Assembly: GCA_047602425.1 (NCBI GenBank)
Contig: JASGHG010000001.1
Span: forward strand, 864,001-928,000
Reading direction: 5' to 3'
Source: Nibricoccus sp.
Lineage (GTDB): Bacteria; Verrucomicrobiota; Verrucomicrobiia; Opitutales; Opitutaceae
DNA: 64,000 nucleotides
In this document: in pieces, positions 55,151-62,754 of the stretch
Layout: each line of letters begins with the position of its first letter
Position numbering within the stretch: position 1 is the first letter of the stretch
The notes under the pieces: generated by a model
Told to the model about the DNA's origin: nothing
The model's input: only the letters and a program-made list of their open reading frames with translations
Databases searched by the model: none
Translations under genes and position numbers: made by a program

Positions 55151-56473
55151 TTACCCCGCCAACGCATCCAATGGACCTGTCCCGAGCGCGTCGAGCGGGC
55201 TCCGCACCCCCAGCCCCGGCTTTTGCATGACGTGTGTATAGATCTGCGTCGTCTCCACACTCTCGTGGCCCAGCAATTCTTGTACCGTGCGTATATCCGC
55301 GCCGCCCTCCAATAAATGCGTTGCAAAGGAATGTCGCAGCACATGCGGCGTCACCCGCTTGTCGATACCGGCACGTTGCGCCGCCAGCCGGATGGCATTC
55401 TGGAAAGTCCCATCCAGCACATGATGCCTTTTACGCAAGCCGCTCACCGGATCGGACATCGTTTCACGCGAGGGGAACAGCCACTGCCATTTCCAATCTT
55501 CACCTGCACGAGGATATTTCCTATCCAGCCCTTCGGGTAACCATACGCCCGGCAAATTGTTTTTCCTATCCTCCGCATGGAGCACCCGTAATCGAGCCAA
55601 GTGCTCGCGCAACTTGGCCTGTAGCGACTCCGGCAAAACCGTCAGCCGGTCTTTTTTTCCTTTGCCTGCATAAATCTGCAACTGGCCGCGTTCCAGATCC
55701 AAATGGTGCACACGCAGTCGCAACAGCTCCATAAGGCGCAAACCGCCGCCATAAGCTAATTCAGCCATCAAGCGCGTCGTCCCATTCAATTGCTCGAATA
55801 ACTTCAGACACTCTGCCTTCGACAACACCGTCGGAACTTTTTGCTTAGCTCGCGCCCGTCGAAAATCGAACTGCCCCAAATCGCGTTTTAATGCCTCTTG
55901 GATAAAAAACACCAAAGCGTTCAATGCCTGTTTTTGCGATGATGGGCTGGCCCGCTGCTCCACGGCCATCTTCGAAAGAAAAGCTGCCACATCGTCCCCA
56001 ACCGCAGCATAAGGCGACTTCGGTTTCATATGCTCAGCAAACAAACCAGCCCAACGCCGGTACGTCTGCTCCGTCCGCCACAAAAACCCTTTGCGCCTGA
56101 TCGCCGTGATCAAATCGCGCTCCCAATCCGCACCGCCCAGATCTTCCGCAGCCTTGGGCGCCTGCTCCTCCAACGGACGCTTCGCCCTGACCACCCGCGA
56201 CTCCTGCCCTCGTTTGAAAAACCATCTCAAACCTGCACGCAGGTCCTCCTCACGTCTTCCGGCTTGCAACTCCCGCTGCTGAATATACTCCTTGGCCAGC
56301 AAAATAGAAGCAGCAGCCTGGCGGGTTCGGCAAAAACCCAAGAAACCCATAATCGCCCGCTTGTAGGCAGCTTTGGTTTGCGCATCCAGTCCCTCTTCAA
56401 CCAGTACCGAGCCCCATTGCGGAAACGAAACAACCACCTCGTCGCGCCAAAAAGTCTCTCCTTGTAAAGCCAT
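55151..56473 (-). CDS. intI: Integron integrase with an N-terminal extension
   Basis: '[14 protein letters not shown]', IntI-specific patch '[26 protein letters not shown]', '[12 protein letters not shown]', 'LGH...TTQIYTH'. Confidence 0.96.
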
Positions 56474-58543: not shown

Positions 58544-58558
58544 GCCCAACCAGCCGCT
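58544..58558 (+). repeat. attC: attC4 left part (interrupted by the IS)
   Basis: GCCCAAC CAGCC GCT. Confidence 0.85.
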
Positions 58559-58728
58559 CCCCTTTAGGTAAAATCAAGGGGTAAGTTTGATTTTGCCGTC
58601 AGGGGGGGGAGGGGCGAGTCCGAGAATGGGCCTCCAGCTCGTCGGAGGACGAGCCCCGGGGGGGGTAGGATGTAGCAGGTGGTTTTGGTTACATGAGATG
58701 GATATGGTTTTGGCGCTTTAACCAGGAG

Positions 58729-58902
58729 CCCGGTCCTCCGCGACGATCCCCATGAGTTGGTCCAGCTTTTGCGGGCTGGCCCGGACGATACTTAAAGGGC
58801 GGTAAGACCGGGAGGCCCGCCGTCGGGGCTTTAAAACATACAGTTGAGCATCAGCGAGGCTGTGCGGAACGGCTGGTGGCCCTCAAGCGGCGGGTTTCCC
58901 GG
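58729..58902 (-). ncRNA. Predicted bridge/seek RNA with target- and donor-binding loops
   Basis: Two hairpins with internal loops carrying ACCAGCCGUUCC/CUGUAUG (target side) and AGUAUCGUCC/GGGGAU (donor side); RNA ends unknown. Confidence 0.75.
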
Positions 58903-58946
58903 AAAAGCAAAAGTTAATGTCGGCTAAAATAGATCAAGGAAGTGGT

Positions 58947-60212
58947 TTAGGCGGCGGAGCGGAAAACGCGCTTCGGGTCGAAGGGTTGGGGCGAGCGTTC
59001 CAGGCCGTGGAGCAGTTTGAGGAACTTGCGGGCGACCGCGGTCATGGCTTTGCCGCCGCACATGCCGGTGTCGCGTTTGGCGTGGTAGTATTGCCCGTAG
59101 AGTTGTCCGTGCACGACGCGTTTGAGGACGGCTTGGGCGAGGACGTGGCGCAGGCGGGCGCGGCCGCGTTTGGCTTGGCGGAGTTGGCCTTGCATGGTGC
59201 CGCTTTGGCGGGGCCGCAGGTTGAGCCCGCCGTAGCGCCAGAGTTGGCGCACGTGGGCAAAGTCCCGGAGCGGTCCGGTCTCGGCGAGGACACGGGCGAG
59301 CATGAAGGGGCTGATCAGGTCGGGATGGGCTTGCAGGCGGGTGGCGCCGCGGGCGCGCAGGCGTTCGACCAGGGCGATCATTTGCTGGCGGGTGTTGGTT
59401 CGGCGGGTGCGCAGCACGGTGAGTTCGGCAAAGAGGGCGCGCAGGTCCTCGGCGAGCAGGGCCAGCCAGTCGGGGTCGGAGTCGATCAGGGCGCAGCGCT
59501 GGGCGTCGGCGAAGAGTCGCTGGATGGTCTTTGGGCCAACGTGGTGGTTGCGCAGTTTGGCGGTGCAGCGTTCCAGGCCGTCGGCGAGGATCGCGGCGGC
59601 GTTCAGGCCGTAGAGTGCGATCGTGGCTTGGGCGGCGCGGCCTTCGAAGAGCCAGTCGTTTTTAAAGCTCAATTCGGGGAAGAGCGAGAGGAGCAGTTTA
59701 TGAATCCTGTTTTTACAGCGGGTGGAGTCGCGTTCGAGCCGGTCGTAGCGGGCGTTGAGTTCGCGCAGGAGCAGCCACTCGCCTTGGAGGGGACGATCGG
59801 TCAGGGTTTTGTTCCATTTGGCCAATAGTAAAATCGTGCGGGGATCTTTGATGTCGCTTTTGCCGGTATCGTTGTTCTCGACCACTTGCATCTGGTGGAC
59901 GGCTTCGCCGTTGACCAAGGCGGTGGCGCAGCCGAGTTGGCGGGCCGCGCGCAGCAGGCGCCGTTCGTATCCGCCGGTGGGTTCGCAGAGGATGCGCACG
60001 CCGCCAAGGCCGTGCTGGCGGGCGTGGGTGTTGAGTTGTTCCAGCCATGAGAGGATGGCCTCATTGCGATTGGCGATATGGCCTTGGTGCGCCTGGGCCC
60101 CGAGTTCACCGTACCAGTCCAGTGCTTTTTGCCCGACGTCGACGGCGATATCCCAGCGAGTTTCCGGTTGCCCGGAGTGCGTTCTGCCATTAAGTGCTTT
60201 GTTCGTTATCAT
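58947..60212 (-). CDS. IS110-family DEDD recombinase/transposase
   Basis: 'IAVDVGQ', 'CEPTGGY', 'KSDIKD', C-terminal 'YGGLNLRPRQSG'. Confidence 0.93.
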   Translation of the reverse strand: MITNKALNGRTHSGQPETRWDIAVDVGQKALDWYGELGAQAHQGHIANRNEAILSWLEQLNTHARQHGLGGVRILCEPTGGYERRLLRAARQLGCATALVNGEAVHQMQVVENNDTGKSDIKDPRTILLLAKWNKTLTDRPLQGEWLLLRELNARYDRLERDSTRCKNRIHKLLLSLFPELSFKNDWLFEGRAAQATIALYGLNAAAILADGLERCTAKLRNHHVGPKTIQRLFADAQRCALIDSDPDWLALLAEDLRALFAELTVLRTRRTNTRQQMIALVERLRARGATRLQAHPDLISPFMLARVLAETGPLRDFAHVRQLWRYGGLNLRPRQSGTMQGQLRQAKRGRARLRHVLAQAVLKRVVHGQLYGQYYHAKRDTGMCGGKAMTAVARKFLKLLHGLERSPQPFDPKRVFRSAA

Positions 60213-60317
60213 TGTTAGATTGCGGCTCCGGCTAAGGAGTGCCGGTTACGTGCTTGTCACCGTCTAGTCCGTGCCGGGGCCGCCCCTTATGTTACCTCAT
60301 CCGCCTATTAGTAGCAT

Positions 60318-60394
60318 ACAGCGCAATGCCTCGACGGGGTTCGCTTTGAGTTTGGAGTCGCCAGCTCGGCATGGCTGACCAGAGATCGTTAGGC
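60318..60394 (+). repeat. attC: attC4 right part
   Basis: ACAGC gcaATGCC...GGCATg GCTGACC agagatc GTTAGGC. Confidence 0.85.
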
Positions 60395-60400
60395 AAAAGT

Positions 60401-60706
60401 ATGGCCTTCCCGATTTACACGTTTCCCAGTCAGAAGTTCGAGGCGATTGAAGTGTGCCTTCGCACCGCTGGTTATAGCGTCGAGCAGTCTGGTCGGTCGT
60501 TACTGGTTCAGTCTGGTGCCGCACGAGCTCAGGTTTGCGACTATACGGAGGACGGTGATGCAGAAGTTCATTTCATCGTTCTTTTTCCGCACCGAGGTTT
60601 CTTTAGCTTTTTCGTGTTCTGGATCTCGGATGGCAGACTTGTCCGGAAGCTTTGGCGGCTCTTGAAGCAGCAGGGAGCTAAATATGTTGATCCTCGTAGA
60701 ATCTAA
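60401..60706 (+). CDS. Cassette 5: hypothetical protein (101 aa)
   Basis: ATG 7 nt after R'; stop just before R''. Confidence 0.8.
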   Translation: MAFPIYTFPSQKFEAIEVCLRTAGYSVEQSGRSLLVQSGAARAQVCDYTEDGDAEVHFIVLFPHRGFFSFFVFWISDGRLVRKLWRLLKQQGAKYVDPRRI

Positions 60707-60714
60707 AGAGCCGA

Positions 60715-62660
60715 ATCGGGTAGCCGGAGGTAATTAGCCTCCGGCCCCCACACCACCCGGCGTACGGGTCCGTACCGGGCGGTTCCGATCTGATTACGTC
60801 ACTTTCACCTTCGTCGCAGGAGGTTTATCCCTTGACGTTGGTTTGGCGGGTAATGATAGGCGATCCATTGGGTTTGCAGGTTGGGCACCCCTTGCTTCTG
60901 CAGCCATTCGTTGGTCAGCGCGGCTTGCACGATGCTGTTGCTGCTCATCCGCCAGCAGCCTTTGCGGCTGCGGCTGGCCAGATGCACTTCTTCTTTCTTC
61001 GCGCCAAGGCGCAGCAGGTTTCGCCGCCGTGTCGGCGCGCGTTTCCATTGTTTCCAGTAGCATTGCCGAACTCGGCGGCGTAGCCATTTATCCAGCTCGA
61101 GCACTTCGCGATACGTGTGGCTGATCCGGTAGTAGCCGATCCAGCCGTTGACGTAGCGGCTCAGGCTGCCGAGCCGGTGTTCCATCGACACGGCCCACGA
61201 GCGGCCGGTCAGTTCGCGCACTTTCGCGCGGAACTCTGCCTCGGCGGCTGGGCTCCAGCGGATTTGTTTCCGTTGGATCTGACAGCCGAGGAACGTGCAG
61301 TCGGCCAGCGGCGCGGCCCGGCTTTTGGCCGGGTTCACCGTGAGTTTTAACTTCTGTTCAACGAACTTCACGACATCGGCCATCACTTGTTCCGCTTTGG
61401 CGCGGCGCGGGACTACGATCAGGAAGTCGTCGGCGTAGCGCGCGAAGCGCAGGCGGCGCCGTTCCAGTTCACGGTCCAGCGGGGTGAGCATGATGTTGGC
61501 GAGCAGGGGCGACAAGGGTCCGCCTTGCGGCACGCCTTTGGTTGTTGGTTCTCGCTTTCCGTTCGGCAACACCACCCCGGCGCGCAGGTAGCGGCCGATC
61601 AGGCGCAGGACGTCCTTGTCCTTTACCTTCGCGGCCACGCGCGCCATAAGCAGGTCGTGGTCGACGTGATCGAAGAAGCTTTTCAGGTCGCAATCGACGG
61701 CGTGGGTGTTACCCTGTGCCGCGGCGTCCCGGATCGAGCGCAGCGCTTGATGGGCGTTGCGTCCGGTTCGGTAGGCGTGACTGTTTTCGCTGAACGTTTC
61801 CTCGAACACCCCGCTCAACTCTTGAGCGAGGGCTTGCTGGATGACCCGGTCCAGCACCGTGGGGATGCCCAGCGGGCGCTCGCCGCCGGTTTTCTTCGGG
61901 ATCGCCACCCGTCGCACGGGCGAGGGGCGGTAGGTCCCGTTCTGCAGTTTGGTGCGTACTTTTGTCCAGTGGGTTCGGATGAACGCGGGGAAGGCCGCGA
62001 TCGACATGGCGTCGATCCCGGGCGCTCCGCCGTTTTGCCGAACCTGCCGCCAGGCGGCATTGATGTTCGCCGGACTCAAGACACGTTCCCATTGTTCGCT
62101 ATGACTGCGGTCTTTCTCCGCCGCTAGGCTGCGCTCGTGGCCGGATTTGGCGTCCAGCGCCAGCTCCAGTTGGAAGCAGCCCGCGGTCTCCGCGGTCCCG
62201 ATCGGTTCGGTCCTTCGCGCGTGCGTGAGGCCTTCCGGGGCTTTCGGCGAGCCTTGTGGAAGGCGCTCGCTTACTCCCGGCTCGTTTCCCGCGCTACTAC
62301 GACTTCTGCTGACTGCTGCGCGTTCGCCGACACGGTTCCCCGTGGCGATGCGGGCTGGTTGCGTGTGCAACCGCCTGCTTGCCGCGCAGCTCTCCCTGGG
62401 TAAGGGACGTGACTTTCCCGACACAACCCCGGGCTTTACCTGTGACGCTGATACCCGGACTTCGTTCTGTGGTGCGCACTCGTCCGCGTCACCGGCCTTG
62501 TAACCCGTTCCTGTTCGTGGGCTCGTCGGTTTGACGCCAGCTTCTTTCCCACAGGGTCTCGCGACACCGCAGTTGCTTTTGTCTAATGCTTTTGGTTTAT
62601 CCATCGGTATCTTGCAGCGAGGACTTCCACCCCACCAGTTCACTCCCATGCCAGGCACAC
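60715..62660 (-). mobile_element. Group IIC-attC intron, 1946 nt
   Basis: 5' end GUGUG, 3' end ..ACCCGAU; short DV 'GAACCGCCCGGUACGGACCCGUACGCCGGGUGGUG' with CGC triad; DVI hairpin; splits R'' GCCGA|AC. Confidence 0.95.
60805..62160 (-). CDS. ltrA: Group II intron reverse transcriptase/maturase, no endonuclease domain (start uncertain)
   Basis: 'RPLGIPTVLDRVIQQA', 'GVPQGGPLSPLLANI', 'RYADD', domain X. Confidence 0.92.
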   Translation of the reverse strand, partial: ALDAKSGHERSLAAEKDRSHSEQWERVLSPANINAAWRQVRQNGGAPGIDAMSIAAFPAFIRTHWTKVRTKLQNGTYRPSPVRRVAIPKKTGGERPLGIPTVLDRVIQQALAQELSGVFEETFSENSHAYRTGRNAHQALRSIRDAAAQGNTHAVDCDLKSFFDHVDHDLLMARVAAKVKDKDVLRLIGRYLRAGVVLPNGKREPTTKGVPQGGPLSPLLANIMLTPLDRELERRRLRFARYADDFLIVVPRRAKAEQVMADVVKFVEQKLKLTVNPAKSRAAPLADCTFLGCQIQRKQIRWSPAAEAEFRAKVRELTGRSWAVSMEHRLGSLSRYVNGWIGYYRISHTYREVLELDKWLRRRVRQCYWKQWKRAPTRRRNLLRLGAKKEEVHLASRSRKGCWRMSSNSIVQAALTNEWLQKQGVPNLQTQWIAYHYPPNQRQGINLLRRR

Positions 62661-62754
62661 ACCAGGCGCTAGAGCACAACGCCTATGCTCGTCACGCCAG
62701 CTGCGTGGCAGCTGTCGCGCCGAGCACAGGCGTGGCTCACCTTTAACGTTCGGC
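62661..62754 (+). repeat. attC: attC5 main part (GCCGA at 60710-60714 is its left end)
   Basis: AC caggc GCTAGAGC...GCTCACC tttaac GTTCGGC. Confidence 0.9.

What the first reader, a model, noticed from the sequence alone, without database searches (positions are those of the whole stretch)
58544..60394. IS inserts next to the extrahelical base of attC L'' with a mismatched core (target CT, donor AT)
Seen: the empty site rebuilds as GCCCAAC CAGCC GCT|ACAGC, whose L'' GCT(A)CAGC pairs with L' GCTGACC. Only one T is shared by both junctions (gcT-cccc, caT-acag). Both right-hand guides end in AU, which reads AT. Established: IS621 uses a shared CT core, and IS1111-attC elements are known from proteobacterial integrons. 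Inference: an effective 1-nt core or first-position tolerance. No other attC here has ACCAGCCGCTACAG (most are ACCAGGCGCTAGA.), so targeting looks subtype-specific.
Basis: partly seen in the sequence, partly recalled or inferred. Interest (0 to 1): 0.7.

Follow-up and report, generated by a model that had tools for sequence, protein, structure and literature searches.

The report
Integron-targeting jumping gene, one-base core
A mobile element uses a built-in guide RNA to insert at one exact spot in integron gene-cassette sites, and in it and its relatives the element and its target need to share only one DNA letter at the joint instead of the two seen in the studied models, which may loosen a design rule for RNA-guided genome editing.

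Summary
Observation confirmed. A 1,759-bp IS110-family element (421-aa recombinase, bridge RNA downstream) splits an attC site inside L'', sharing one T; all 9 genomic copies show the same junctions (target CT, donor AT). Subtype specificity as stated is wrong: 5 of 9 copies sit in CCAGGCGCT sites; the rule is at most one guide mismatch (9 of 15 occupied versus 0 of 34). It is not an IS1111-attC element: no subterminal repeats, no BLASTP hit to ISKpn4/ISPa21, AU test rejects grouping (p 3e-10), cut 2 nt further into L''. It belongs to an apparently uncurated multi-phylum clade that reached attC independently (41 of 46 right ends at the R'' register). Across it, the right-target-guide base opposite core position 8 reads the donor base in 35 of 35 elements (all four bases, at least 6 joint changes), while donor and target match there in only 5 of 29. 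Best reading: known top-strand exchange after T9, with the handshake window moved from positions 6-7 to 7-8, leaving a one-base core. No experiment or circle junction seen. The scan's earlier notes on other DNA concern IS1111-attC elements; none matched this protein.

The parts
58544..58558 (+). 5' part of the interrupted attC: R'' (GCCCAAC), 5-nt spacer, first three bases of L''; left target, positions 8-9 = CT
58559..60317 (-). IS110-family element, 1,759 bp counting one shared T (58558 or 60317); 9 copies in the genome, all in attC
58559..58577 (-). Element right end: right-donor CCCC (plus strand) and a -35-like TTGATT (58577-58572) that would form a promoter on the circle junction (inferred)
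58729..58812 (-). Donor-binding hairpin of the predicted bridge RNA
   Evidence: consensus fold of 22 homologous RNAs, 33 of 40 pairs with compensatory changes
58744..58751 (-). Right donor guide GGGG-A-U plus handshake CG (reads donor A at 8; pairs target G7, C6 after exchange)
58785..58793 (-). Left donor guide AAGUAUCGU (imperfect match to left donor TAGTAGCAT)
58816..58894 (-). Target-binding hairpin of the predicted bridge RNA
58837..58843 (-). Right target guide CUGU-A-U-G: reads ACAG and T9 of the target, but A8 and C7 of the donor
58868..58877 (-). Left target guide ACCAGCCGUU (U.G wobble at position 8); one genomic copy carries ACCAGGCGUU
58947..60212 (-). 421-aa DEDD recombinase (D25, E77, D120, D123, S337), PF01548 + PF02371
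60213..60317 (-). Short left end (105 bp); left donor TAGTAGCAT at 60309-60317 (plus strand), positions 8-9 = AT
60318..60394 (+). 3' part of the attC: unpaired A60318, rest of L'', variable stem, L' (60374-60380), R' (60388-60394)
55151..56473 (-). Integron integrase heading the cassette array (context)
   Evidence: TIGR02249, 372 bits against cut-off 265

Best explanation
A bridge-RNA-guided IS110-family recombinase element that targets the R''-L'' end of attC by RNA-DNA pairing. Shown here: element ends, 9 attC insertions, a conserved two-hairpin RNA downstream of the gene, four guide segments, and covariation of the guide with the junction. Taken from IS621 and CazIS110 work: the enzyme cuts the top strands right after T9 and swaps them, so products are always left-target(1-9)|right-donor and left-donor(1-9)|right-target, and positions just 5' of the cut need not match between donor and target. 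Inferred: in this clade only T9 is shared; position 8 has joined position 7 as a 'handshake' position. The right target guide mispairs with target base 8 before exchange and pairs with the incoming donor base after it. In many relatives the right donor guide does the reciprocal (reads the target base); in the window's element it reads the donor A, so position 8 is energetically neutral on the top strands. The element is copied out as a circle whose junction, with one T, rebuilds a sigma70-like promoter (inferred), and inserts against the direction of the cassette genes, splitting L'' and presumably disabling that attC.
For: 9 of 9 copies with identical junction logic. Right-target-guide P8 reads the donor base in 35 of 35 elements with that end (G 19, A 11, T 3, C 2; permutation mean 14.2, maximum 25 in 20,000, kin not independent), P7 in 33 of 35, P6 in 5 of 32; at least 6 changes of donor base 8 on the protein tree and 6 joint changes with the guide; one locus found afterwards (L120) fits. 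Donor and target match at 8 in only 5 of 29 elements, 8 of 47 insertions; in one Opitutales genome 7 insertions have G,G,T,C,A,G,T at target 8 with a constant donor A. IS621 is cut after T9, T9 is read by G63 (aligned to G80 here), the bottom-strand cut lies 4 nt away and positions 6-7 are already mismatched (PMC11208158 passages; PMC13626964 passage). CazIS110 integrates over 1,300-fold more via the top strand (10.1101/2025.10.25.684509 passages). One-T junctions give -35/-10-like boxes at 17-18 nt spacing in 14 of the 15 rows printed.
Against: No transposition, RNA or circle junction was observed (searches gave none). The right donor guide is not uniform: among 24 mismatched elements it reads the target in 13, the donor in 7 (including this one), neither in 4. 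In 4 of 29 elements plus one tie the core is a matched dinucleotide, so the mismatch is not obligatory. Four divergent rows (L056, L065, L070, L079) were left out because the guide column lacks the A opposite T9. Thirteen junction calls were set by eye. For IS621, guide pairing to both core bases was strongly preferred (PMC11208160 section 8), so the tolerance may be specific to this clade's enzyme.
Confidence: 0.72

Rival explanations
1. Guide P8 follows the donor base only because the right target guide must grip the inserted junction (left donor-T-right target) during copy-out excision, or to suppress excision; it plays no part in driving insertion.
For: In the IS621 excision complex the right target guide and handshake bases pair with exactly that junction (PMC13626964 passages); CazIS110 guides are described as pairing with the inserted junctions. 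It predicts the same 35 of 35 covariation.
Against: The reciprocal pattern in the donor loop (reads the target base in 13 of 24 mismatched elements, P7 in 38 of 55 insertions) is what handshake pairing after insertion exchange predicts; handshake pairing promotes insertion in IS621. The two roles are not exclusive.
Confidence: 0.17
2. The enzyme recognises the folded attC (the extrahelical base or hairpin), so position and loose core follow from structure rather than from guide pairing.
For: Cut lies next to an unpaired L'' base; a target stem-loop raises ISPpu10 activity (10.64898/2026.03.19.712850 passages); 41 of 46 clade insertions keep the attC register.
Against: Sequence alone nearly suffices: of 20 genomic sites within one mismatch of the extended guide, 17 are attC or attC-like and only 3 are not; occupancy follows guide match among equally folded attC sites (9 of 15 versus 0 of 34); guides differ with the local attC in each relative.
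Confidence: 0.07
3. The register is different: a zero-base core with the cut before the T, the shared T being incidental.
For: Junction sequences cannot place the cut on either side of a shared base; ISKpn4-type junctions show no obligatory shared base.
Against: Both right guides have A opposite this T in all 44 elements scored, except one whose donor loop is broken; the 9-nt left guide usually ends on it; the IS621 T9-reading glycine aligns.
Confidence: 0.03
4. It is simply another IS1111-attC element.
For: Same attC end, same orientation, long non-coding region downstream of the gene.
Against: 421 aa against 330-350; no subterminal repeats; no BLASTP hit at E 10 to ISKpn4 or ISPa21; AU p 3.3e-10; cut 2 nt apart.
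Confidence: 0.01

Closest known systems
IS621 / ISCro4 (IS622) bridge recombinases (PMC11208160, PMC11208158)
   Same: DEDD plus Tnp-serine enzyme (weak PDB hits, E 2e-5 and 4e-5); two-loop RNA with left and right guides in the same order; invariant T at position 9; handshake bases next to the core.
   Different: 421 aa; RNA downstream of the gene; donor and target read on the strand opposite to the gene; shared core of one base; handshake signal at positions 7-8 and not at 6.
IS1111-attC group (ISKpn4, ISPa21, ISPst6, ISPa25)
   Same: Inserts in L'' at the R'' end of attC, gene facing against the cassettes, guide RNA downstream.
   Different: Separate protein lineage, no subterminal inverted repeats, cut after base 3 of L'' (AAC+8) instead of after base 1 (AAC+6), non-proteobacterial hosts mostly.
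Long IS110-subgroup elements with downstream non-coding region (exceptions noted in PMC11187229 section 6); CazIS110
   Same: Protein length in the 395-455 aa class; best plasmid hits are such proteins at 24-29% identity; top-strand-only integration would explain the junctions.
   Different: Three clade motifs are absent from that paper's ISfinder-derived protein file; the protein scores below the NCBIfam IS110 cut-off (111 against 140 bits); attC targeting by this subgroup was not found in the searches listed.

Membership tests
IS110-family bridge recombinases | DEDD RuvC-like domain and Tnp domain with catalytic serine | tested here: met
   PF01548 E 8e-16, PF02371 E 1e-13; D25, E77, D120, D123, S337; D25 is 90% or more conserved, the others invariant in 40 homologues
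IS110-family bridge recombinases | Non-coding RNA with target and donor loops matching both junctions | tested here: met
   Two hairpins with internal loops, 33 of 40 pairs compensatory; four guides match. Predicted, not shown expressed
IS110-family bridge recombinases | Dinucleotide core shared by donor and target | tested here: not met
   0 of 9 copies; 5 of 29 clade elements. This is the variant feature, not taken as grounds for exclusion from the family
IS110-family bridge recombinases | Circular intermediate with junction promoter | tested here: inconclusive
   Promoter-like boxes on rebuilt junctions; no joint in three contig sets with partial cover
IS110-family bridge recombinases | RNA-dependent recombination activity | not testable with these tools
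   needs an experiment; 9 near-identical copies at 8 or more distinct sites imply recent activity
IS1111-attC group | Subterminal inverted repeats | tested here: not met
   best 8 of 12, reached by 239 of 500 shuffles; three IS1111 controls 11-12 of 12
IS1111-attC group | 330-350 aa IS1111-type transposase clustering with IS1111 | tested here: not met
   421 aa; separate branch 100/99; AU p 3.3e-10 against joining with ISKpn4/ISPa21 (long outgroup branches flagged)
IS1111-attC group | Long non-coding region downstream of the gene | tested here: met
   388 bp downstream, 105 bp upstream
IS1111-attC group | Same insertion position in attC | tested here: not met
   AAC+8 here; AAC+6 in L114, L116, L117, L118

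The most novel reading that the evidence does not exclude
A widespread, uncatalogued lineage of bridge recombinases evolved attC targeting independently of IS1111-attC and works with a one-base core: donor and target need share only T, and the former first core base is a freely programmable handshake position that biases the reaction toward insertion. If this transfers to IS621 or ISCro4, the 'matching dinucleotide core' rule for bridge editing is a matter of guide design and not of chemistry.
Probability: 0.45. Interest if true: 0.8.

Novelty: new variant of a known kind. Interest (0 to 1): 0.62.

Why it matters
Bridge-editing designs pair sites by matching two-base cores and mismatching positions 6-7 (10.1101/2025.05.14.653916 passages). 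Natural elements here recombine sites that differ at the first core base and encode the post-exchange partner in the guide, which gives a direct, cheap test of what the core is for and could enlarge the set of usable site pairs about fourfold. It also shows a second, independent RNA-guided lineage converging on the same end of attC, so cassette arrays in environmental bacteria are probably frozen or split by this clade much as class 1 integrons are by IS1111-attC (effect on recombination inferred, not tested).

Tried and rejected
Subtype-specific targeting of ACCAGCCGCTACAG: rejected. IS1111-attC membership: rejected. Single-sequence fold of the RNA region was not better than shuffles (z -1.1); the structure rests on the alignment. 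Two structural attC scans were too strict (2 and 16 sites, none of the occupied ones) and were replaced by a profile search (57 hits), which still missed two attC-like sites. The automatic test of which L'' base is extrahelical was inconclusive. The first genome-collection scan with the single protein found nothing; viral contigs held no relative; 0 of 400 genomes of the class at E 1e-60, 2 of 400 of the phylum at E 1e-30 and only two weak distant hits among 60 relatives. No RNA holder listed; three contig sets covered the element only partly and showed no joint. The promoter script stopped after 15 of 21 rows. Tetu and Holmes 2008 is not held and Post and Hall 2009 was seen only in reference lists; EF648212 is not in the collections. 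PMC10714797 and PMC11322120 gave nothing useful. No structure prediction was run.

Full report
Observation. The window holds an integron integrase (55151-56473, TIGR02249) followed by cassettes. The attC at 58544-60394 is split after the third base of L'' by a 1,759-bp element carrying a 421-aa IS110-family recombinase on the minus strand. The genome has 9 copies at 99.8-100% protein identity; all 9 lie in attC sites at the same position, with CT on the target side and AT on the donor side. Two copies share the same downstream flank, so there are at least 8 distinct insertions. With L''/L' pairs enforced, the base 3' of the cut is unpaired; the free fold prefers another structure by 0.9 kcal/mol.

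Guide RNA. The 388 bp downstream of the gene hold two hairpins with internal loops; in 22 aligned relatives 33 of 40 consensus pairs show compensatory change, although the single sequence folds no better than shuffles. Numbering as in IS621, the left target guide is CCAGCCGUU (positions 1-9, wobble at 8), the right target guide CUGU-A-U-G, the left donor guide AAGUAUCGU and the right donor guide GGGG-A-U-C-G.

Target choice. A profile search of the element-free genome gave 57 attC-like hits, 49 scorable. Sites within one mismatch of the guide (position 8 ignored) are occupied in 9 of 15 cases, the others in 0 of 34 (Fisher p 2.4e-6); two more one-mismatch attC-like sites, empty, were missed by the profile, making 9 of 17. 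Four copies sit in CCAGCCGCT and five in CCAGGCGCT; right flanks are ACAG 7, AGAG 1, ACTG 1. One perfect site is empty. Only 3 non-attC near-matches exist, so no hairpin recognition is needed to explain the pattern. One copy carries a left guide changed to match the CCAGGCG sites and sits in one; a contig of run X1 shows the same change.

The clade. An alignment-based scan returned 78 loci at 34-67% identity and the metagenome scan 4. Of these 82, 58 had an alignable downstream region; with the window's element that is 59 rows. The other 24 were truncated, interrupted or a weak fragment. I left out 4 more rows (L056, L065, L070, L079) because the guide column lacks the A opposite T9 (their P8 column would still match the donor), and merged near-identical copies, leaving 44 elements. 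Five left-end and eight right-end calls were set by eye, and three right ends were dropped. With right ends defined without any attC motif, 41 of 46 are followed by the R'' signature at 6-8 nt, 36 at exactly 7. Record titles span Verrucomicrobiota, Thermodesulfobacteriota, Myxococcota, Nitrospirota, Fidelibacterota, Bacteroidota, Latescibacterota, Lentisphaerota and others; most are metagenome bins, so single labels may be wrong. The clade is rare among relatives of this genome.

Position 8. The right target guide's P8 base reads the donor base in 35 of 35 elements with that end (G 19, A 11, T 3, C 2), and the target base in 13 of 55 insertions; P7 reads the donor in 33 of 35, P6 in 5 of 32. 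The permutation figure (mean 14.2, maximum 25) overstates because kin share states; on the tree the donor base needs 6 changes and donor-plus-guide also 6, so each change is joint. L120, found later, fits. Donor and target agree at 8 in 5 of 29 elements (8 of 47 insertions). The donor loop is mixed: among 24 mismatched elements its P8 reads the target in 13, the donor in 7, neither in 4. The window's element is among the 7.

Mechanism. From PMC11208158 (passages): IS621 cuts both top strands after T9, T9 is nearly invariant and read by G63, the first core base is less conserved, guide bases opposite positions 6-7 pair with the other partner after exchange, and the bottom-strand cut by that numbering lies four bases away. 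PMC13626964 (passages) expects two mismatches beside the core in products. 10.1101/2025.10.25.684509 (passages) and 10.64898/2026.08.31.748434 (first of six parts) report top-strand-dominated integration or single-strand excision. Junctions made by top-strand exchange after T9 are exactly those seen, so a mismatch at 8 raises no chemical paradox. What is different is that the handshake window covers 7-8 and not 6-7, leaving one shared base. This step is inference from covariation. A one-T circle junction also gives -35/-10-like boxes 17-18 nt apart in 14 of 15 relatives printed (the window's element was not among them but has the same boxes as L012). Against: no activity, RNA or circle was observed; IS621 preferred full core pairing (PMC11208160 section 8); a role in excision would give the same covariation.

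Comparison with IS1111-attC. Plasmid copies of ISKpn4 and an ISPa21-type element, and a viral-contig fragment, insert at AAC+6 in the same orientation; this clade inserts at AAC+8. The ISPa21 record L115 is not in an attC. The window's protein has no BLASTP hit to them at E 10, lacks subterminal repeats (8 of 12, as shuffles; controls 11-12 of 12), and an AU test rejects joining the two attC-targeting groups (p 3.3e-10; only 10 outside proteins, long branches flagged). PMC11187229 (passages, section 6, supplements 1, 3, 6) gives 330-350 aa for IS1111 and 395-455 aa for the IS110 subgroup, with some downstream-RNA exceptions; three clade motifs are absent from its ISfinder-derived file. Its figures and one picture-only supplement could not be read and may show junction detail.

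Novelty. Eight full-text searches found no report of attC targeting by a long IS110-type element or of natural donor-target mismatch at the first core base; core changes in PMC11208160 altered donor, target and guides together, and ISPpu9 and ISPpu10 have shared dinucleotides (passages). The library lacks most subscription papers, including Tetu and Holmes 2008 and the published ISCro4 papers, and preprint supplements are closed, so prior mention cannot be excluded. That IS1111 elements insert without duplication is already in print. The scan's index had no match to this protein and two unchecked notes on IS1111-attC elements in other genomes. Verdict: a new variant of a known kind; interest 0.62.

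Noticed in passing
window about 60700-62680, minus strand: Group II intron (RT/maturase TIGR04416; Rfam RF01998, RF02001) inserted in the R'' of a later attC of the same array; fits the IIC-attC class (name from the listing, not tested).
   Followed up: partly
G000:C1 289228-292291 (L137): One copy of the element has a 1.3-kb IS3-like element (rve and HTH_Tnp_1 domains; family name recalled) inserted in the left donor guide of its bridge RNA, with an apparent 3-bp duplication.
   Followed up: partly
G000:C1 5135361-5137117: Copy with a one-base change in the left target guide that matches the commoner attC subtype; possible natural reprogramming (same change in run X1).
   Followed up: partly
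G000:C1 5131600-5133356: Copy with a substitution in the right donor guide.
   Followed up: no
L098 832-1944 (G000:C1 about 5137660-5138780): A second, unrelated single-copy IS110-family element (370 aa, about 46% to ISSso6-type) inside a cassette array, next to what looks like a shortened attC.
   Followed up: partly
G000:C1 287000-302500, 920900-929300, 5130900-5146000 and scattered sites: At least three attC arrays and several lone sites; two integron-integrase-like genes (920473-919154 and 5146949-5147989).
   Followed up: partly
L042 right end: A 4-nt duplication at the junction, the length of the IS621 stagger; could be a repair footprint.
   Followed up: no
L033, L048, L080, L089: Clade members whose guides or flanks do not look like attC; possible retargeted relatives.
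   Followed up: no
L056, L065, L070, L079, L081: Halophile/Rhodothermota sub-branch with an enlarged target-loop stem and unclear right-guide register.
   Followed up: partly
recombinase residues 101-102: The IS621 N84-P motif that reads the base opposite position 8 aligns to N-G here and S-G or S-A in many relatives; may relax position-8 preference (speculation).
   Followed up: no
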